Shown: piece by piece, positions 21,696-31,976 of the stretch
How positions within the stretch are numbered: position 1 is the first letter of the stretch
Layout: each line of letters begins with the position of its first letter
From: an uncultured Verrucomicrobiae bacterium
GTDB lineage: Bacteria > Verrucomicrobiota > Verrucomicrobiia > Limisphaerales > SIBH01
Direction: 5' to 3'
DNA: 64,000 nucleotides
Assembly (NCBI GenBank): GCA_963760275.1
Contig: CAVXCM010000007.1
Location: forward strand, 196,921-260,920
The notes under the pieces: model-generated
Told to the model about the DNA's origin: nothing
Database searches by the model: none
Seen by the model: the letters and a program-made list of their open reading frames with translations, nothing else
Program-made: the position numbers and the translations under genes

Positions 21696-22310
21696 TTACA
21701 TCGCCATGCGCGAGATGGGGTCGCTCCAATCGCTGTAGCCGGTGCTCCCGCCGATGGCGCGAGCCTGCACCGTATACGTGATGCCGGGCGTAAGGTTCTC
21801 AATCAGGATAGGACGGGAATAAGTGAACAGTCCCACCAACTGCCACCCACTGGTCCCATAACTCATGCGCACCTCATAGGCGCGCGCCGTGGGCACGCGC
21901 TTGAGGCGCAAGCCGAGTTGGGTGCTCTGGGGATTATCCAAACGTTCCACTTCAGGCTTCACCAACACCACTTGCGTATGATTTGTGCGCACGGCATCGA
22001 AGCCCGAGGAGAGCAGCATGGCGAGGTCCTCCCCGGCGATGCTCTGCACATACGCCGCTTCCTGGCGAAGGCTGCTGAGCAGGAATGTCCGCGCCGCATT
22101 CTTGGCCGCGACATTCTGCCGGCCGCCTTGCATGGCGGCGGCGATCGCGTTGGCGAACACGGTGCGGGCCGCGGCGAGGCTCGCCATGCTGATGATTGGC
22201 GCGGCAAACGATTCGTTCCCTGTCATCTTTTGCACCACGTTATCCGCGAAGGAATTGAGCGGTGAGTCGGACAATCGGGCGAAGCCTAATGAAGTGCGAT
22301 ATGTAGCCAT
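21696..22310 (-). CDS. Fibronectin type III domain protein (helical N-terminus + FN3), no signal peptide
   Basis: C-terminal NLTPGITYTVQARAIGGSTGYSDWSDP; ggaaaggaaac SD-like sequence upstream. Confidence 0.8.
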   Translation of the reverse strand: MATYRTSLGFARLSDSPLNSFADNVVQKMTGNESFAAPIISMASLAAARTVFANAIAAAMQGGRQNVAAKNAARTFLLSSLRQEAAYVQSIAGEDLAMLLSSGFDAVRTNHTQVVLVKPEVERLDNPQSTQLGLRLKRVPTARAYEVRMSYGTSGWQLVGLFTYSRPILIENLTPGITYTVQARAIGGSTGYSDWSDPISRMAM

Positions 22311-22889
22311 AATAGTTTCCTTTCCAACCGAAGTGCCTGGAGCTTGATGCTAGGCTCGCCACACAGCGAATCTAATAAACGGTTGTTCCGGCCGGCTGCT
22401 GCCTTTTAGGGCGCAGTGGGTTGTGGCCTTGAGCCAACTGTTGCACAAATACCCGAGCACTGAGTGTGATGTCGCGGCGGTCTGGCCAATCTTAACCCCA
22501 TTTCAGGGGCTCAATCCGCCTGGGCAAGTGGGAAGGAATGTGAGATGAAACCTTCAGACCGGACAGGCAGGCAGGACAAGCTGCTGCTGAATCACGATGA
22601 AGAAATCCCGGTAGGACCTGACAGAGCGCCTAGCGTCTTTTCTTGTATTTCCTGAGGCACCGTTCCGCATATCGAATGCCAACACGGTTGGCTGCTGTCC
22701 ACGCCCCATTCTTCCGGACTCCTTCCTGAAAGGCAGGTAGCAATAGATCGGAAAATGTCCCACGAACGCGGGAAAGGTAATCTGCTTCCCGCTCGCATCG
22801 CGCCCCACTGTCACTCGCGGCGCCAACCCGGAAAACCATCGCGTGCTTGTCTCATGGAAAGACAGCCAACAGACACGCTGTCTCGTTTA

Positions 22890-23215
22890 GCAAGTCTGCT
22901 GACCGCGTTTGCAGACTTGCTGAGCGGCTGTGCAGACTTGCTGAGCGGCTGTGCAGACTTGCTGAACGACTGTGCAGACTTGCTGAACGGCTGTGCAGAC
23001 TTGCTGAACGGCTGTGCAGACTTGCGGAACGGCTGTGCAGACCTGCTGAACGGCTGTGCAGACCTGCTGAGCGGCTGTGCAGACTTGCTGAACGACTGTG
23101 CAGACTTGCTGAACGGCTGTGCAGACTTGCTGAACGACTGTGCAGACTTGCTGAACGGCTGTGCAGACTTGCTGAGCGGCTGTGCAGACTTGCTGAACGG
23201 CTGTGCAGACCTGCT
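22890..23215. repeat. 21-bp tandem repeat (gcagacttgctgaacggctgt) x14 plus degenerate flanking units
   Basis: Full units at 22911-23204 with few variable positions; 11-bp inverted repeat at 22889-22921. Confidence 0.95.
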
Positions 23216-23318
23216 CCCGACGTTTGCAGGCTTGGTGGGCCTCTGGGTAACGGGGCTCGACGCTCTGGCCAGGTTCGCAACGAACGGAAGGAGGTTGCCA
23301 GGTAGGCGATGCGGAGTT

Positions 23319-23384
23319 CGAATGCAGAAGTCCGAATTGCGATGTCCAGATTAGTTCGACATTCCAAATTCGTCATTCGTCATT
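23319..23384. repeat. 66-bp REP-like element with attcgtc heptamers, copy 1
   Basis: cgaatgcagaagtccgaatt...aattcgtcattcgtcatt; direct copy at 23547-23612. Confidence 0.8.
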
Positions 23385-23391
23385 CGCTTCG

Positions 23392-23540
23392 TTCGTCCTT
23401 GAGCAGCTGCTCCAGCAACTCGGCGGCGACGTTCTTGTGCTTTAGGCCGCGCACTTCGGCGAGGAATTGGTCGCTCAGGATCGAGATGTCCGGCTTGGAC
23501 AATCCAGCGGCGGTGAAGACGTCGATCACCTGGCCCTGGG
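23392..23540 (-). pseudogene. hsdR: Type I restriction subunit R C-terminal (DUF3387) fragment
   Basis: [47 protein letters not shown]. Confidence 0.8.
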
Positions 23541-23546
23541 GAAGTG

Positions 23547-23612
23547 CGAATGCAGAAGTCCGAATTACGAAGTTCAGCCAGTTCGGCATTCGCGAATTCG
23601 TCATTCGTCATT
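23547..23612. repeat. 66-bp REP-like element, copy 2
   Basis: Direct repeat of 23319-23384. Confidence 0.8.
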
Positions 23613-23614
23613 TT

Positions 23615-23685
23615 CCACTCCGTCACCACCTGCACCCAGCGCTTCTTGCCGTCTTCCTGTTCGAGGATGTTCTCCTGTCCGGCGA
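23615..23685 (-). pseudogene. hsdR: Second short HsdR fragment
   Basis: AGQENILEQEDGKKRWVQVVTE resembles the HsdR segment preceding DUF3387. Confidence 0.6.
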
Positions 23686-25741
23686 TTAGACAAACCGGCA
23701 GCGCTTAGCTCTGCGATGCACTCACGCACTAGTCTCTTTGCTTTGGGAAGGAACTTGTAGCTGATGCGCTTCGTTGGCTTGCCCGTCCTCCCGATCAACG
23801 GATGGGATGCCATGCTTTCGTACCGGCGATCATGAACTTCCGTCGCCAGTTCATAGGTCTTGGGAAACTTCCTCGCGAGCTTGCCCGTTGGTGCGTTCAA
23901 AACGCTACCGATATGGCCGAGGTTGTAGCCACCGACGGTTCCGTCGCTGCTGACAACGGCATCCAACAGCAGATCATCAAACACATCGAGGAAGTTGACG
24001 AAACCGGTGATGTTCACGCCGGAAGCGGCGACGGTCTCGATTGCCTGTAGTTCAGCCTGGTCATAGCGCGTTCCAAAAAGTTTACGCCAGTTCAGTGCTG
24101 GAATGCGGGAATCGAGTTTGCGGAGTGCGTGATTGATTCCGCAGTAGTTGGCCGTCGAGCGCTGAATGATCCCAAGCTCACGCATAATCAGTTCGGCGGA
24201 TTTGTTCCAACCCCGCCGTCTGCCGGGTGGCAGGTAGGCAGTTTCCATACCCTTCCATCCGGCGGCGAGTGCGGCATCTCGTCCTCGATCAGTCACTCCC
24301 GCCTCGACGATTTGTTGAGCGTGTTCCTGCCCAACTGAGACGGGCTGGCGGCATTGATCAGGGATGCACGAACCCACCACGCGGGCGCAACTTTGCAGGC
24401 ATAGGCAATCTGGCTGGCGGACAGAGTGCCGGTGCGAATCAGGAACCGGCCCGTGGCAACCTGCAGGTCGGCGTGCATACCCTTTGGAGACCACGATTTC
24501 TTCAACAGCCGTGCCATGGCCCTGTCCTCGGCGACTGGAAGGCGCCCATCTGCTGCGTCGATAAACTCTGCGCGCACGGATTGGTAAAGCGTGCTGGCTT
24601 TCACGAGCTCGACCAGCTTCGAGGCAGGCACACGAGGCAGCTTGGCGTAGCGTCGTAGGTAGTTGCAGACGCTCCGGTAGATTTCGGGGTGCTTCTCCAG
24701 AATCCGCCACAGCCGGGCGGTCAGAATCGTGCGGAGGCGTCGCGTGCGCTAGCAGATATTTGAAGCGAGTGGGGTTGCTGATTCGATAGCGCGGGCGTCA
24801 GTTCCTCGATGCGCGTTAGCAGCTTTTTCTGATCCGTAAAGTTGGTCTTGATCGCCGCTTCCGGCGGGTTGGACACAGACTTCAGCTCGTCCTCAATGTT
24901 GTGGACGCGGTGGATGCTGATCTTGCCACTTTGCGGGAACAGACCGACATCCTTGCTCATCAGATCGAGCGAAACGAGTAGGCGACGCAAGTCGTGCTCG
25001 TTCTTGGCGAAGAGTCGAATGTCGTCCACATAGCGGAAGTAGCGGAACATCGACGCCGGGGAGTCTTCAGCTCGTCGAGATGGACAAGCACGACTTCGGA
25101 GAGGAGGCCGGACGAAACGGTCCTTGAGGGATGCCGTGACCGTGGTGATGCCCGCTCGGTCGCGGTCCACTTCTCCAGCCACCGCGGCAACTTATGCAGA
25201 AGTCCGGGTCGAGGCCGAGCTTGTCGAGGAAGTGGCGGAGCACGCGGTGGTCGAGACTGTCGTAGCAGGCGGTGAGGTCGAAGCTGGCGGTATAGACGTA
25301 GCCGCCGCGAATGCGTCTCGGGCGTATTCGTTGAAGGCTTTGTAGCCGTCGCTCCATTTTCGGTAGAACCAGGTCGATGTCTTGCCGACGTAGAGGTGCC
25401 CGAAGACTTGTTTGATGTAACGTTGGTCGACTCGGGGCCAGCTTCTCCGCGATGAGGTTGACGGCTGCTTGATAAACGATCTGGTCTTCGACGCTGGGCA
25501 ACGAAAACGGACGGAGGATGCCGGAGGCTTTGGGGTGAAAAAGCTTGCAGGCCGATTCGGGTTCGTAGATGTCCGCTTTAGCCTGTCAGCGAGGTCATCA
25601 AGCAGCGCCTCCTCTGCGACGGCATACTGTTGGTAGAGCGGTCGGAAGTAGGACTTGTAGGAAGCGTCTGCATTCGACCGCAGCCAACGCCACGCTCGGC
25701 GGCAGGTTTTCTGGGTGACGCAGTTGGTTGAGGTCCGACAT
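23686..25741 (-). CDS. Reverse transcriptase, UG/Abi (AbiA-like) class: RT + helical region + putative HEPN; multiple frameshifts
   Basis: Reconstructed across frames: MSDLNQLRHPENL-RRAWRWLRSN, PKASGILRPFS, DQIVYQA, FYRKWSDGYKAF, FDLTACYDSLDH, GIPQG, YFRYVDDIRLF, C-terminal HDRRYESMASHP. Confidence 0.85.
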
Positions 25742-25851
25742 GCAAAGGCTCAGCCGTTGAAGATGCGGTCGAGTAGCAAGGGGTCAAGCGTTTCACATAG
25801 CTCTCCGCCTGAGCATCCCGGTAACGCTGCGCTGGAGAATAGTAGCACAGG

Positions 25852-27316
25852 CTAATTAGCATCTGGGATTTTAATCAGGTTCTCAACCGAACAAGCTAAA
25901 GCAGCTAACGATGATTTCACGGCGGCCGGGCCGAAAAACGCCCCGTCCTTGTGCATAACATCATTGAGTTCCGCAATCTGCTTGGTGCAGTTCGAAATGG
26001 CCCCAAGCAAATCAGAGGAGTATGGCAACCTCATTCCCGCAATCTTCTTCTTCAGTTTATTGGCGACATTATCCAGCAAATCACTGTGGCCTTTTTGCTG
26101 TTGATCGGGCGTTTCTTCATAGCAGCCCAGTCTCTTAGCGTGATGTTTCAGCGTTGTTTCAATCATGGCGCGGGTCAGCGCGGCACACGCGACTGGAAAC
26201 TCTCTATACTGCTGAAGCCTGCAATACTCGTAGAAAATAGCGGACGCCTTCTTGCCCACGTTTTTTCTCAGTGAAAGAATTTGCCGATCTGTGGGAGGGG
26301 TGTCGCCTCCTGGCTGGGTTAGGATCCATTGCTACCCTCGTTGCCAGATGTACTCCCAGCGCTGCCGCTATCACCCGGTTTCCCAGCTCCAGCGGGCTTG
26401 CTGCCCTTTGGCTCTGGGGTGGGCTGTGTTTGGCTTGGAGAAGCTGGTTTGAACCCATTCGGCAGGATTGATTTCCAGAACTCTTGCCGCGACTCTTCGT
26501 TGTTTGCAGACCTACGGGTAAATCCGCCTTCAAGTGTTGACTTTGCAAATCCAAGATATGCGCGATGGATGACTTCCACGACCTCACGGTTGTTAGGAAC
26601 TTGATACACGCCATCAGAATCCCAGGGCGAATCCGAGCATCTTTGGAAATGCAGAAAACGATGTTGTTACGCGCTCAAAATTGGTGATGCCATCATCTTC
26701 AAGCTGGAAGTCCGGAATGTGGATCATCATTGCTTCGTAGAGCAGCCATATGTTGATCTCCTTGCGGATTTCAGTCTGTGTAGCTCCGGTGACCTCGGCG
26801 ATGTCCTGAATGGACTGTCCAGCCTTGTGATTGTCGTAGTGAGATGCATAGCGAGCTAATGTTTCCCACTCGCGAGAACCTTCATTGTGCGCCCGATACA
26901 CAATTCTCTTGGCGTCGCTAATACTCGAAGTCACCCAGTATCTGATTTTGCCAGGAACCAATCCTTTGAGCTTCTCGCAGTCAGCGCGGAGACCATGCCG
27001 AGTGCTCGGCACGAGGGTGAGGTCATGGATCATCTTGAGCGCCGCGACTCGCCTATTGCCGTCAATAACCACAAGCTGCGATTTCCCTGGAGCCTTGAAC
27101 ACTACTGGGATTTCATTGTTTAGATATCCTCGGTCTGCCAATAGGTGCTTGATCACTTGGCTTGGAGACTGCGAACCCATCCTGCACAGTCTTTCGATTA
27201 GCTCTTTCTCAGATGTGCCACCAGGGTGGAGACGCAGGCGCGGGATTTAGTCGATGAGCAAGGCGCAAAGTTGCGACGCTGACTTCACGGGAGCTGATTT
27301 GGCAGAACTCTTTCAT
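25852..27316 (-). CDS. ParB/Srx-like N-terminal domain protein with a HEPN-like C-terminal helical domain (frameshifted)
   Basis: NPR.., VVIDGNRRVAALK, proline-rich linker, FPVACAALTRAMIETTL...LNDVMH; joins ORFs 26614-27180, 26319-26609 and 25852-26259. Confidence 0.65.
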
Positions 27317-28193
27317 TTGATTGCGGATTGTGATGGGAATTTCAGTTTATCAGCGAGGGTTATAAATTCCCTCCTTCTACCTTTGTTCGCGAGTGCGTGG
27401 TGCGTGTGAATCGTTGTGTGCTGGTGTTGCTTGTAAAGTTCCAAAATCTCCGGGCAGAGGTCATAGCTCAGGACCCATGATTGATCGTGGAACTCATCAG
27501 GAAGTCACGGAGAGCCTCGTGGTCGCTGTGCGTGTATGCGTTCAGATAAAGCTCCGCAGCCTTGTGGTAATACGGTGGGTCCAAGTAAACAAAATAGTCT
27601 TCCAGCGTTTCCGCAGCTCGCCGGAGGAGTGTGATCGCATCCATGTTTCGTGCTGTGATCCGGTGCCGGTTCTCGTGTAGGAACTTGACCTTTGCTTTCA
27701 GTGCCGGTCGGTGGAAGCGACAGTCTATTGAGTAGCTGCCGGATTGGTCATAGCCGCCGATCGGCCCCCCGCAGCGCTTAATGACTCCTGACACGCAAGT
27801 TCGGTTAAGGTAAAAAGCCGCAAATCCAAGCTCAAATCCCCGTGCCCGTCCCCTCAAAATGCGGCGTTGGTTGTGCCATTCTTCGACATCGAGCTCAACG
27901 GTCTGTATGAGCTCCATGAACCGTTCACCCTCAGTTAAAGCTGCCTTCCAGAACCAATAGACTGCCGGGTCTTTGTCATTGAGTGTAACTGAGCACTGTA
28001 CGCCAGTGCGTAGTAATTCGAGAGCGGCGCCTGCACCCCCTGCATATGGCTCTAGATAATGGCATCCGTTCAATCCGTTCAGTTCGATTACCGCCGCTAG
28101 GTAAGGGGCGAAAGATCGCTTTCCGCCGGGATACCGCAGCGGGCTGATATGCCTCTGCAACTGGAGGGCGACGTATTTTTCAGGCGGGCTCAT
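27313..28193 (-). CDS. Dam/D12-class N6-adenine DNA methyltransferase (frameshift near 27475)
   Basis: SPLRYPGGK, EPYAGGAG, YLNRT, YLDPPYY; continues as WVLSYD...SAIK-stop with an ATGA overlap into the ParB-like gene. Confidence 0.9.
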
Positions 28194-28426
28194 TGCTTCA
28201 TCGGTTCAGTCGGTTGTCCGGCCTGGTGTGCAAACCGACCTGACAATTTTGGAAATGCCGCGAGATGCGCGGTCAGTAGTGCGCCCGCGCCCGCGTCCAG
28301 CAAGCGCACCGTTCGCGGAAGCGGGCCGAACATGGAAGCCATGAAGCCAGCTACCGGCGAGGCGGTAAGGAACTGTCCGAGTTCCTCATGCCTTTCATTG
28401 GGGTTGGCTGTGGCCACAAGTCTCAT
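28190..28426 (-). pseudogene. N-terminal remnant of a BsuBI/PstI/Eco57I-type methyltransferase
   Basis: LGQFLTASPVAGFMASMF...RLLDAGAG, after which similarity is lost. Confidence 0.65.
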
Positions 28427-28452
28427 GTCTTTATGCTACCAAACTGAGGTCC

Positions 28453-28610
28453 GTGGTGGATGAAGTGCTGCACGCAGGCGAAGTTGGCGTTGCCCTTGGG
28501 CGGCAAATCATTTCGACACCTCACCCCGGCCCTCTCCCCGTTCGAGGCGGAGAGGAGAAGAAGCGCACGTCGGCGTCCTTGCGGAACCAGTCAGAGTGGT
28601 TGAAGGGCGA
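28453..28610 (-). pseudogene. hsdM: HsdM motif IV region fragments interrupted by a palindromic repeat
   Basis: PFNHSDWFRKDADVR (28562-28610) and PPKGNANFACVQHFIHH (28453-28503). Confidence 0.75.
28519..28555. repeat. REP-like palindrome cctcaccccggccctctccc...ggagagg
   Basis: Imperfect hairpin cctctcc...ggagagg inserted between hsdM pieces. Confidence 0.6.
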
Positions 28611-28617
28611 TATTGGC

Positions 28618-29764
28618 TCAGAATTCTTCATCATCGGCGAAATACTCTGCAGTTTTTTGGAGGAAGTCTGGCTTCAGCGAAGTCGCGAGGCCGAGCTTCC
28701 GAATTCCGTCCAACTTTTCCATCAACTTCGAGAAACTGATGAATCCGCAGACCTTCGCGAGGGGCTTTTCACGAAGGGCAAATGTCGGGCGTAGAATCTC
28801 CTGCTCGACTTTGTCCTGTCGTTCCTCCGGGGCGACTAGAAATAAATTGATTTCAAGGTTCGGCTGCAATGCGAGGAGGTCGCTCATGCGAAGCAGGCCA
28901 GAGTAAACCGCCGTGGTGCATTCGACCTCAAATGCGGCGACGATGGAGTTCCCCTTGAGCCAGAGTCCATCGATCGACTCGATGGTGCGGTTGGTCGCTT
29001 CGTTGAATTGGGTGGGCGACTCGGTGACCATGCGCGGAAGTTCGCCGAGCGTCTTGCCCTGCCATTTCTTGGAGCGGTCATTGCGCGCGACCCAGAGGTC
29101 GAAGCCCATGTCTACGCCCAAGGTGAGAAGGTTGTATTGAATCTCAGTGTGGCGTGTCGTCGCTGTTGCCTCCTGCTCGGTCGTGAAGTCTGGCTTGCCC
29201 GTTTGCTCTTCGGGTTCGTCGGATTCAGGGACGCTGACCTTCGTCGCGACTGTGGTTTTTCCTTTCTTTTGCTCGGCAGTGTAGAGGGGTTTGCGTGCGA
29301 GCTTCTTGGGGTCGACGGGGCGAGCGATGGGGTTGGTTTGCGCCTGTTTGAGAAGGGAGCCGGATAAGCTCGCCGTCCTTGGGATTCGTAAAGCGGTTCG
29401 GGCTGGAACGGACGAATGCCTTGAATTTACCTCGGTCTTTTCGGCCAGTGTAAAAGGCAACTTTACCCTCAAGCTCCATCATCGGGACTCCGTGTTCTGG
29501 GTTGAGTTGGATGAGTGGCTTCACCTCGAAGCGAATGGGAAATCTTCATCACCCCAAATCTTCGACTGGTCGTCGGTCGCTCGCACCACTTCCAAAGCGC
29601 CCACCCAGCGCATTACTCCAGTGAGGTAGCAGAGGAGAATGTCACCGGGTTGAACTTTCGCCGCAGCATTGCGCATTCTCTTGCGGAACCCGGAGATTCT
29701 TCAGCCCGGACTTTTGGAACTCGTTCCAAGTAGTGCCAGTGAAGAGGTCGAGCCAGTAGTTCAT
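28618..29764 (-). CDS. EVE/PUA-like domain + PD-(D/E)XK nuclease (putative modification-dependent restriction), frameshifted
   Basis: MNYWLDLFTGTTW, VQPGDILLCYLTGVMRWVGALEV; C-terminal HTEIQ..L..LG, IDGLWLKGNSIVAAFEVECTT.VYSGLLRM.DL. Confidence 0.8.
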
Positions 29765-29789
29765 AGGTCAGTTCATTTCAAATTTCCAA

Positions 29790-30114
29790 AAGAGCTGGCC
29801 GGGGAGGGCGACCATGCAGTCCACGAGGTCGGCCTCGATGAGGGCGCGGCGGATGGCGTCAGCGTGCTCGGGGCGGAAGTTGGCGGTGATGGCGGATTTG
29901 CAGAAGCGGGGGATGTCGGCGTGATCGTGGTGGGGTGAGACTCCGTCGAACCCTAACTTCTTTCCCGGCCCGCTTCTTTGATCAGGGTTCGAGAGACTCT
30001 CACCCCACCAGGTAAATGACCACGGCAAGCGTGGTAGATGGAGACGCTTTTATGGATGGTGGCGGTGCTGTTGTTTTGCGAGTTATTGCTGGCTGTGGAT
30101 TTTGGGCGGGCCAT
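29790..30114 (-). pseudogene. hsdM: Mosaic of HsdM fragments (N-terminus plus scrambled internal pieces)
   Basis: MARPKSTA...STA; ADIPRFCKSAIT / ANFRPEHAD / IRRALIEADLVDCMVALPGQLF. Confidence 0.7.
29929..30009. repeat. Inverted pair of REP-like units (ggtggggtgagactccgtcgaaccc); further copies at 30280-30303, 32130-32153 and 32166-32189
   Basis: 29929-29953 and 29985-30009 are near reverse complements. Confidence 0.8.
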
Positions 30115-30251
30115 GTGCGTCCGCTGAAGTTGCCAAAGTGCGGAAGCAGGCGGCAAGGGAAAGTCATTCTTCGTAGTGGGTTGTTGTCATTCAGGAGGCG
30201 GGACGGTTTCGGGCGGGCCAGCATCGTTCTCTTCCTCTTCACTTCTTCTTT

Positions 30252-30493
30252 TTCAAGAGTGTGAGGAAGGCTCGCGGGTGGCTCGACGGAGTCTCGCCCC
30301 ACCTACACTGCTTTCGGGTCGGTGGCGGGTTGGCATTCTGATTTGCGCATGCATTGTGGGCGGGTAGGAATCGCCAGTTTGACACGAATATGAATTCGAA
30401 ACTTTTCAGCAGTGTTGTTGCTGTCACGTTGTGCGCACAGTGGGGGCTGGATGCCGCCAGTTTTGATTGGCCTCAATGGCAGGGACCGAATCG
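30252..30493 (+). repeat. ~240-bp direct repeat, copy 1: upstream region and first ~35 codons of the 32276 propeller gene
   Basis: Near-identical to 32106-32379 ([34 protein letters not shown]). Confidence 0.95.
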
Positions 30494-30603
30494 AACTGGA
30501 AGAGCATTCTCATCGCCCGCTGGACGGGGAATTGATCCGCGCGTTGCACCATGATTTCTGCGGCGATCTCGTGCCGGACATTTATGACCGGCGGCTGTCG
30601 CAC

Positions 30604-30822
30604 TTACCGGAAGTCGTCCACGCTCAGGCCACTGCCTTCGATGATGCTTTTCAAGGTGCCGATCGGAATCGGTTTGTTCCCGTGCATGGCCACGATCACC
30701 TGCCGACCATTGGCGTGACGCCATTTCTGGTGGCTGCCTTTCTGGCTGACTTGCGCGAAGCCATTCCTGCGCAGAACACGAACCACGTCGTTCGCGTTGC
30801 AGACTGGGAACCGAACGCTCAC
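30604..30822 (-). CDS. hicA: HicA family toxin
   Basis: LRRNGF..VSQKGSHQKWRH...V.MHG.KPIPIGTLKSI; GTGA overlap with the hicB stop. Confidence 0.9.
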   Translation of the reverse strand: MSVRFPVCNANDVVRVLRRNGFAQVSQKGSHQKWRHANGRQVIVAMHGNKPIPIGTLKSIIEGSGLSVDDFR

Positions 30823-31022
30823 GTGAGCGCGACTTCCAACACTTTGGCCCCGGCAGGAAGCGGCTCGGGCGATGGCTCGAACCACAAGTCCAATGCTTCC
30901 TTCGCGTTGCGCACCGCTTCCTCTTCCGTGTCACCGGCAGAAGCGCAGCCCGGCAGTTCGGGGAAAACGGCGGACCAGCGTTTGGTTTCGGAATCGTGTT
31001 CGACAACGAGCCGGAGTTTCAT
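30819..31022 (-). CDS. hicB: HicB family antitoxin (short, no DNA-binding domain)
   Basis: WSAVFPELPGCASAGDTEEEAVRNAKEAL. Confidence 0.9.
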   Translation of the reverse strand: MKLRLVVEHDSETKRWSAVFPELPGCASAGDTEEEAVRNAKEALDLWFEPSPEPLPAGAKVLEVALT

Positions 31023-31076: not shown

Positions 31077-31976
31077 ATGAGCAATGCCCCGGTTCAAACG
31101 CAGGCCGGACTTGAAGCGCAACCTCCGTTGCCGGTGCGTCGTTTGCACAACTTCATCTATTGCCCGCGGCTGTTTTATTTCCAGTGGGTCGAAAACATTT
31201 TCCAGGAGAACGCGGACACGGTGGCGGGCAGTCACGCGCATCGCAACGTGGATGCGCCGTCGAAGCTGGAGGACGCCAAGGAACTCGGCCTGCCGGAAGG
31301 GGCGAAGATTCGCAGTCTCAAGCTGGAGAGCGAAGCGCTGGGGCTGGTCGGCGTGGTGGACATTGTCGAGGGCGGGCCGGAGGGCGCGGAGGTGCTCGAT
31401 TACAAGCGCGGCTCGGCGCGGCGGAACGCGGAGGGCGAACGCGAGGCGAAGGAGCCGGACGCCATCCAGGTGGCCGCCCATGCGCTGCTCCTGCGCGAGC
31501 ACGGGGTGAACGCGGTGCGCGGCGCGATCTATTACGCGGCGGACAAGCGGCGCGTGCCGGTGGATTTCACGGAGGAACTGTTTGGCAAGGTCACGAAGGC
31601 CATCACCGATGCGAAGCAGACGGCGAGCAGCGGGCGCTGTCCGCCGCCACTCAAGAATGATGCGCGCTGCCTGTATTGCTCGGCGTATCCGGTCTGTCTG
31701 CCGAATGAAACGCGCTGGTGGGCACAGGCGCGGAAGGAGGCGGTGCCGGAGCCGCAGTTACACTTTGCGTTCAGCCCGCCAGCGGAAGATCGATTGCGCG
31801 AACAGATTCTTGAGGCGCTGGATTTCGCCGCGGAGTCGGGCCTGCGCGTTGGTCAGGTTCACAAAGTTCGTCCGCGCAGTCGCCGCAATTCCGAAGAGCG
31901 TGAGGCGGCCACTCAGGTTCGGCGAGATACGTGTCAGTATCCAGGCGCGCAGTCGCCGCAATTCCGAAGAGCGTGA
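31077..31976 (+). CDS. cas4: CRISPR-associated Cas4 (N-terminal part of a Cas4-Cas1 fusion, Cas1 lost); the ORF runs on into the array
   Basis: LHNFIYCPRLFY, GVVDIVE, LDYKRG, Q...ALLL, CLYCSAYPVCLP (4-Cys Fe-S cluster). Confidence 0.85.
   Translation: MSNAPVQTQAGLEAQPPLPVRRLHNFIYCPRLFYFQWVENIFQENADTVAGSHAHRNVDAPSKLEDAKELGLPEGAKIRSLKLESEALGLVGVVDIVEGGPEGAEVLDYKRGSARRNAEGEREAKEPDAIQVAAHALLLREHGVNAVRGAIYYAADKRRVPVDFTEELFGKVTKAITDAKQTASSGRCPPPLKNDARCLYCSAYPVCLPNETRWWAQARKEAVPEPQLHFAFSPPAEDRLREQILEALDFAAESGLRVGQVHKVRPRSRRNSEEREAATQVRRDTCQYPGAQSPQFRRA

What the first reader, a model, noticed from the sequence alone, without database searches (positions are those of the whole stretch)
23686..25741. 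Hidden ~680-aa UG/Abi-type reverse transcriptase with a HEPN-like tail, invisible as a single ORF
Seen: joining several frameshifted pieces gives RT motifs (PKASGILRP, DQIVYQA, FDLTACYDSLDH, GIPQG, RYVDDIRLF), a long helical region and a C-terminal R-x6-H (RYESMASH) motif. The upstream gap is only ~110 bp and has a TTGACC-N16-CATCTT promoter-like signal, leaving little room for a retron or DRT2-like ncRNA. Known: AbiA-type UG/Abi RTs combine RT, alpha-helical repeats and HEPN, and act in anti-phage defence. Inference: a stand-alone RT-HEPN defence gene, possibly of an uncharacterised clade in Verrucomicrobia.
Basis: partly seen in the sequence, partly recalled or inferred. Interest (0 to 1): 0.8.

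Follow-up and report, generated by a model that had tools for sequence, protein, structure and literature searches.

The report
Assembly-broken UG19 defence reverse transcriptase gene
This is a gene for a reverse transcriptase fused to a helical region and a predicted HEPN (RNase-type) domain, from an already catalogued family (UG19-large) of likely anti-phage enzymes; it looks shattered here most likely because of sequencing errors, so it is a real but ordinary member of a known kind that appears still untested.

Summary
The hidden gene is real. Window 25741-23686 (minus strand) aligns at 85% identity over 679 codons to intact 686-aa proteins, with 12 frameshifts, a 13th indel at the stop and no nonsense codons. 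The breaks are most likely assembly errors: rpoB in this genome is broken at the same density, and a relative's contig differs at 11 of the 12 sites and the stop. The family is UG19-large (PADLOC 553 bits, next family 171), catalogued in 2022 as predicted defence; my searches found no test of it. It is neither AbiA nor Verrucomicrobia-specific. The tail model's best structural matches are HEPN domains, AbiA's among them, at modest Z (7.5-8.7). R-x6-H is kept in 58 of 58 and 73 of 80 relatives. The proposed promoter likely lies in a relic of the hsdS 3' end. Likely mechanism: protein-primed, untemplated ssDNA synthesis controlling a HEPN RNase. Against that, AbiA's equivalent motif was dispensable. 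The scan has reported UG19-large on other DNA several times.

The parts
23686..25741 (-). UG19-large reverse transcriptase gene, 686 codons in relatives; read here across 12 frameshifts plus one indel at the stop
   Evidence: indels matched by contig X1
24845..25741 (-). RT domain (about residues 1-300; boundary approximate): motif A FDLTACYD 25282, GIPQG 25135, YVDD within 25035-25009
   Evidence: conservation
24170..24830 (-). alpha-helical repeat region (about residues 306-525; boundaries approximate)
   Evidence: AlphaFold2 model of relative P0001; aligns with the helical domains of DRT6, AbiK, DRT4, Abi-P2 and AbiA
23688..24152 (-). C-terminal HEPN-like domain, 155 aa, unbroken in the window
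   Evidence: model pLDDT 95; structure search
23802..23825 (-). R-x6-H motif RYESMASH (R641 and H648 in P0001 numbering), preceded by H638
25852..28193 (-). upstream PD-Lambda-5 system: A (25852-27180, in pieces) and the B methyltransferase (27468-28193); a neighbour, not part of the RT unit
   Evidence: PADLOC; the RT next to the 3' part of PD-Lambda-5A also on contig X1
23391..23684 (-). two relics of a type I hsdR C-terminal region (23684-23618 and 23535-23391) directly after the RT stop

Best explanation
The gene is a UG19-large reverse transcriptase, likely intact in the living strain, that likely defends against phage as a single protein: its RT would make protein-primed, template-free single-stranded DNA, and its predicted HEPN tail would act as a latent RNase switched on during infection. 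Shown: family membership, three-part architecture by model, an intact YVDD, a near-invariant R-x6-H, and defence neighbourhoods. Inferred from class 1 relatives (AbiA, AbiK, DRT4, DRT7): tyrosine priming and untemplated synthesis. Inferred from HEPN biology: a homodimer whose two R-x6-H motifs form one RNase site. Weakest step: that a phage DNA-binding protein or a dNTP change acting on the tethered DNA unlocks the RNase, as reported for the effectors of DRT1 and DRT4.
For: Family: RT_UG19 553 bits over profile 3-559 of 562, next UG21 171 bits; window pieces also score UG19 best; 35 UG19 rows form one branch, SH-aLRT 98. Intact in life: frameshift density 5.8-6.3/kb against rpoB 5.8-7.1/kb. 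X1's 18 gap letters plus the one unresolved site give 2061 nt, exactly 686 codons and a stop. pN 0.10-0.19 against pS 0.67-0.84 in all three domains. Class 1 fold: DRT6, AbiK, DRT4, Abi-P2 and AbiA align over 388-447 residues, group II RTs over 233-270. Tail: best matches AF0298 HEPN Z 8.7 (rmsd 3.3, 120 aligned), SO_3166 Z 7.8, AbiA Z 7.5, Csm6 Z 6.9, sacsin HEPN Z 6.8. R641 and H648 are 2 of only 4 tail columns conserved at 90% or more across relatives of 24-48% identity. Defence: 26 of 107 adjacent ORFs hit PADLOC against 3 of 113 control ORFs.
Against: In AbiA, the closest tested architecture, the matching motif (RNSNPVSH) showed no RNase activity in vitro, and R581A, H588A and the double mutant did not reduce defence (PMC11077055). 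HEPN Z-scores are below the tool's caution level for helical bundles (about 13). Foldseek ranked vinculin tails first, with no hit at E<=0.001, and no HEPN family in Pfam matched any of the 57 tails at E<=1. No invariant priming tyrosine was found: the linker matching AbiA's has Y in only 22 of 80. On Z alone the RT core is closer to group II RTs (22.4) than to DRT6 (18.2). X1 is a relative about 91% identical, not this strain.
Confidence: 0.45

Rival explanations
1. AbiA-like: the same defence RT, but the HEPN domain only dimerises the protein or binds nucleic acid, and the tethered ssDNA itself blocks phage replication or recombination proteins.
For: AbiA's HEPN mediates dimer formation, is needed for polymerase activity, and its R/H residues were dispensable for defence. 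AbiA is among the top four fold matches of the tail. AbiA and AbiK escape mutants map to single-strand annealing proteins (PMC13064643 passage).
Against: A pure scaffold does not explain why R and H are kept in 73 of 80 divergent relatives while tail columns average 37% conservation. The AbiA tests used few phages in a surrogate host.
Confidence: 0.32
2. The gene is a real pseudogene in this strain, in a decaying island.
For: The flanks hold type I R-M relics. A same-genus genome holds a truncated, broken copy (L002). No reads of this strain were found.
Against: The essential rpoB is equally broken (9 pieces; 22-27 frameshifts). There are no nonsense codons, and the substitution pattern is purifying.
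Confidence: 0.08
3. Not a phage-defence gene: mobile cargo that stabilises its island or R-M operon, for example as an addiction module, or acts in DNA repair.
For: It often lies directly behind hsdS (7 of 58 loci), and its spread across phyla is patchy. Defence has only been predicted for UG19.
Against: Neighbours span many unrelated defence systems (AbiEii, Argonaute-SIR2, DISARM, SoFic, dGTPase, R-M). Tested class 1 RTs are defence enzymes.
Confidence: 0.08
4. An RNA-templated system with an unrecognised ncRNA inside or downstream of the gene.
For: Only the upstream gap and Rfam were tested; an internal or novel RNA would be missed.
Against: 16 of 41 same-strand upstream gaps are 31 bp or less. 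There is no Rfam match at E<=1 in 22000-31000, and the fold is class 1.
Confidence: 0.05

Closest known systems
UG19-large, class 1 UG/Abi RTs (Mestre et al. 2022, PMC9226505; PADLOC PDLC03756 RT_UG19)
   Same: Full-length profile match. RT plus alpha-repeat plus a fused C-terminal domain, which the paper calls unknown, noting very distant HEPN homology in the same sentence as UG19-small's partner cluster 1465. Predicted defence, not among the groups tested.
   Different: Nothing at family level. Added here: fold-level support that the fused tail is HEPN, with a near-invariant R-x6-H.
AbiA of Lactococcus (PDB 8OZ7; Gapinska et al. 2024, PMC11077055)
   Same: Order RT, helical, HEPN; RYVDD; an R-x6-H motif ending in SH; fold matches for the RT-helical part (Z 17.3, rmsd 4.7, 388 aligned) and for the tail (Z 7.5, rmsd 3.4, 122 aligned).
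   Different: 12-14% identity; fails TIGR04499. The linker that carries AbiA's priming Tyr298/Tyr303 has no tyrosine in P0001, and one in only 22 of 80 relatives.
DRT4 (UG15), DRT6 (UG12), AbiK, Abi-P2, DRT7 (UG10)
   Same: Class 1 RT plus helical fold, aligned over 397-447 residues (DRT7 not among the listed rows). Protein-primed untemplated synthesis is reported for these.
   Different: No HEPN tail; trimers or hexamers where reported. DRT4's RNase activity is dNTP-dependent and DRT4 has no HEPN domain.
UG22 with a separate HEPN gene; type IX retrons with HEPN (named in PMC9226505)
   Same: An RT paired with a HEPN domain.
   Different: Separate genes and different RT clades (UG22 scores 114 bits against 553).

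Membership tests
UG19-large | RT belongs to the UG19 clade | tested here: met
   PADLOC 553 against 171 bits, full profile covered (on intact relatives); window pieces best for UG19; one branch in the tree
UG19-large | alpha-helical repeat domain after the RT (class 1) | tested here: met
UG19-large | extra C-terminal domain fused rather than a separate gene | tested here: met
   686-aa relatives; the tail lies in the same gene
UG19-large | defence-island association | tested here: met
   26 of 107 against 3 of 113 ORFs; PD-Lambda-5 adjacent in the window
class 1 UG/Abi RTs | [quoted passage not shown] | not testable with these tools
   catalytic D156, D241 and D242 conserved; activity needs the bench
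HEPN superfamily | HEPN helical fold | tested here: met
   ranks 1, 9, 13 and 14 are titled HEPN and rank 4 is AbiA; ranks 2, 3, 5-8 and 10 are HEPN-type from recall. Z 6.8-8.7 is modest, so the call rests on the enrichment plus the motif; Foldseek was not significant
HEPN superfamily | R-x4-6-H motif, conserved | tested here: met
   58 of 58; 73 of 80 with spacing 6
HEPN superfamily | dimer with a composite RNase site; RNase activity | not tested
AbiA family | TIGR04499 score above cut-off | tested here: not met
   12.8 bits against 250
Group II intron RT/maturase | TIGR04416 above cut-off; branches with intron RTs | tested here: not met
   79 bits against 300; separate from 8 group II RTs in a quick tree
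Retron RT | retron RT clade and upstream msr-msd | tested here: not met
   NF038233 28.5 bits against 235; retrons form their own branch; gaps too short in many relatives
DGR RT | template and variable repeats, Avd, DGR clade | tested here: inconclusive
   no labelled DGR RT was in the tree and repeats were not searched; the DGR RT structure aligns over 276 residues only; the 686-aa architecture and UG19 score argue against it
Class 2 DRTs (DRT2, DRT9) | RT without an extra domain plus an upstream ncRNA | tested here: not met
   Drt2 35 bits against 390; no Rfam match; upstream gaps

The most novel reading that the evidence does not exclude
UG19-large is a one-chain sensor-effector in which DNA made by the RT gates a catalytically active HEPN RNase. 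Unlike AbiA, whose HEPN residues were dispensable, it would be a class 1 RT with a working fused HEPN nuclease, spread between phyla as a passenger in type I R-M operons.
Probability: 0.35. Interest if true: 0.6.

Novelty: new member of a known kind. Interest (0 to 1): 0.27.

Why it matters
How untemplated DNA made by class 1 RTs stops phage is still open, and AbiA left the role of a fused HEPN unexplained. UG19-large is a compact single gene with two separately mutable active sites, so it allows a direct test of whether RT-made DNA controls an RNase. This copy adds little: it is damaged in the assembly, and intact homologues exist, some in named isolates (Ramlibacter aquaticus L067, Caballeronia choica L078, Polynucleobacter sp. 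L084, Clostridium arbusti L087).

Tried and rejected
Promoter reading of TTGACC-N16-CATCTT: rejected as a finding. The hsdS-relic reading rests on DNA similarity to L025 that extends 35 bp upstream of the start and on frame and position matching hsdS ends in L021, L028 and L037. The peptide test alone was weak: 9 of 500 shuffles reached the score for the best case, L021, and 11-287 of 500 for the other seven; L028's best alignment was not at the C-terminus.

Sequence searches of the tail gave nothing useful: Pfam, NCBIfam, PDB sequences and ESM Atlas (79, low recognition, unnamed clusters only). Foldseek on the tail had no hit at E<=0.001 (58). Rfam had no match (69).

No AbiA-family or labelled DGR sequences were obtained for the tree (one search found no AbiA member in 4 genomes). 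The tree is the quick version, on 269 columns; group II RTs were not resolved as one branch. In one search two rows were opposite-strand shadow ORFs and were dropped.

Run X2 held only short pieces; those shown (three at 98-99% identity) cover no frameshift site. No run held half of the region. No priming residue was identified: Y127 and Y36 are 58 of 58 in the closer set but 50 and 55 of 80 in the divergent set; Y134 (75 of 80) and Y387 (71 of 80) are candidates only.

Literature: searches for UG19, DRT11-15 (97) and RT-HEPN (102) found no experimental study of UG19. Most subscription journals are outside the library. Mestre's Supplementary Tables S2 and S3 were not held and may say more on the tail.

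Full report
Observation. A search with the unbroken C-terminal piece returned 84 relatives among 2813 candidates, most of them 685-686 aa with an RT domain. A frameshift-aware alignment to the best one, P0001, matched 679 codons at 85% identity, with 12 frameshifts and no nonsense codon. The family's stop corresponds to a TAA at 23688-23686, one base out of frame.

Are the breaks real? Three lines say they most likely are not. First, rpoB in the same assembly is in 9 pieces, while it is whole in 3 of 3 same-genus genomes. It carries 22-27 frameshifts in 3.8 kb (5.8-7.1/kb) at 93-94% protein identity, and the next gene 8-9 in 1.4 kb. The RT gene has 12-13 in 2.06 kb (5.8-6.3/kb). Second, a 5064-base contig from public run X1, a relative about 91% identical, has indels of the predicted sign and net size at 11 of the 12 sites and at the stop. 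The twelfth site (25702) lies in a 94-base stretch that did not align. X1's 18 gap letters plus that one site bring the gene to 2061 nt, exactly 686 codons and a stop. Third, substitutions against L021, L022 and L025 fall mainly at third codon positions in all three domains (pS 0.67-0.84, pN 0.10-0.19). No reads of this strain were found, so intactness is inferred, not shown.

Family. Four window pieces score best on PADLOC RT_UG19. Four intact relatives score 544-563 bits over the whole profile, against 162-179 for UG21. NCBIfam models for group II intron, retron, Drt2-5 and AbiA RTs are all far below cut-off. In a quick tree of 72 RT cores, the 35 UG19 rows form one branch (SH-aLRT 98) apart from 8 retron and 8 group II RTs; P0001 stood in for the window, and AbiA and DGR references were absent. 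Mestre et al. 2022 (PMC9226505; abstract, passages and section 28 read; of the supplements only the tree file was held) define UG19-large as a class 1 RT fused to an unknown C-terminal domain. They mention very distant HEPN homology for the associated domain, predict a defence role, and did not test it. My searches found no later test.

Distribution. A scan of species-representative genomes confirmed 88 relatives and returned 80 loci; 58 of the 80 hold an intact full-length gene, and the rest are cut by contig ends or split. The closest clade mixes Verrucomicrobiota, Actinomycetota, Planctomycetota and Pseudomonadota. Among 300 sampled genomes of the host's order the best score was 185 bits, with no full-length match. 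By DNA, 1 of 60 relatives held a broken fragment of the gene. The gene is therefore rare, mobile cargo and not a lineage marker.

Architecture. The AlphaFold2 model of P0001 (pLDDT 85.5) shows an RT domain, an all-helical region of about residues 306-525 and a separate tail. Class 1 enzymes align across the RT and helical region (DRT6 Z 18.2, rmsd 4.3, 440 residues; AbiK 447; DRT4 431; Abi-P2 397; AbiA 388). Group II RTs have higher Z (to 22.4) but cover only about 260 residues. The window's own 155-aa tail folds at pLDDT 95. Against 48,161 chains, the best matches were AF0298 HEPN (Z 8.7, rmsd 3.3, 120 aligned), SO_3166, Roquin, AbiA (7.5), YutE, Csm6 and sacsin HEPN. That SO_3166, Roquin, YutE, Csm6, SsR10 and TT1696 are HEPN-type is recalled, not stated by the call. 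These Z values are below the tool's caution level for helical bundles, and Foldseek gave no significant hit. The HEPN call therefore rests on the run of HEPN proteins at the top plus the motif. R641 and H648 are present in 58 of 58 intact relatives. They are present together with spacing 6 in 73 of 80 representatives of 24-48% identity (the 80 are those of 640-820 aa among the 149 new proteins). They are 2 of only 4 tail columns conserved at 90% or more.

Context. In the window the gene follows PD-Lambda-5 A and B and a type II restriction-enzyme-like gene, and is followed by relics of hsdR. Across the 58 intact loci no partner gene is constant; type I R-M genes recur most, in 11-12 of 80 loci. 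26 of 107 adjacent ORFs (21 of 58 loci) hit PADLOC at 1e-20, against 3 of 113 control ORFs from 12 arbitrary stretches of 6 genomes of the host's order. ORF calling was mechanical, kin are not independent and the controls are not taxon-matched. hsdS lies directly upstream in 7 of 58 loci. Of 41 loci with a same-strand upstream ORF, 16 leave 31 bp or less (10 had an opposite-strand ORF and 7 had none in range), and Rfam finds nothing, so an upstream ncRNA is unlikely. The window's 110-bp gap ends in a short frame like the hsdS ends of L021, L028 and L037 and the gap of L025. The proposed promoter lies inside it and is weak. Read-through from PD-Lambda-5 is the simpler guess for expression.

Mechanism. 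The class 1 RTs studied so far prime on their own tyrosine and make untemplated ssDNA: AbiA (PMC11077055, passages, section 19 and part 1 of section 21), DRT4 (PMC12783706, passages) and DRT7 (bioRxiv 2026.02.16.706125, passages). In DRT1 and DRT4 the DNA product is reported to control an effector (bioRxiv 2026.10.27.754916, passages). I commit, at 0.45, to the same logic here: RT-made DNA gates a dimeric HEPN RNase. The main rival, at 0.32, is AbiA's case, where the same R-x6-H motif gave no RNase activity and its mutation left defence intact (also PMC13064643, passages). The exceptional conservation of R and H favours catalysis or nucleic-acid binding but does not prove it. No priming tyrosine could be singled out, and the dimer was not modelled.

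Verdict. A real gene, most likely intact in the organism, and a new member of a catalogued but apparently untested group. Earlier notes of this scan, consulted after my own assignment, report UG19-large in other genomes; they are not evidence. Interest 0.27.

Noticed in passing
window 25852-28193 (-): PD-Lambda-5 A and B anti-phage pair directly upstream; A is in pieces, and contig X1 shows indels at 25846 and 25931, in or just after A's 3' end.
   Followed up: partly
window 23311-23385 and 23536-23612: Two copies (86% alike) of a roughly 70-bp repeat that flank and separate the hsdR relics; a similar sequence lies at the matching place in L004.
   Followed up: partly
window 28280-28609 and 29750-29897 (-): Short relics of restriction-modification genes shared at 78-100% DNA identity with L027, which also has the RT followed by an hsdR C-terminal piece, as does L025; this suggests a shared ancestral island.
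   Followed up: partly
window about 22900-23220: A 21-bp tandem repeat of about 14 copies, open in all six frames.
   Followed up: no
window 30604-31022 (-) and 31077-31976 (+): A HicA-HicB toxin-antitoxin pair and a Cas4-like nuclease gene near the far end of the island.
   Followed up: no
L002 (G009:C109:98-711): A broken, truncated UG19 fragment in a same-genus genome, 74% DNA identity to the window.
   Followed up: partly
L049:4631-9539: UG19 gene wedged between hsdS (gap -1) and hsdM (gap 2) inside a type I R-M operon.
   Followed up: no
P0103 (815 aa); P0118 and P0168: P0103 has about 120 extra N-terminal residues; P0118 and P0168 match only to about residue 550 and appear to carry a different tail.
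   Followed up: no
L022:10531-11937 (-): A second, unrelated 468-aa RT 2.4 kb from the UG19 gene.
   Followed up: no
G000 whole assembly: About 6-7 frameshifts per kb in rpoB; any 'hidden' or 'split' gene reported from this genome should be presumed an assembly error first.
   Followed up: yes
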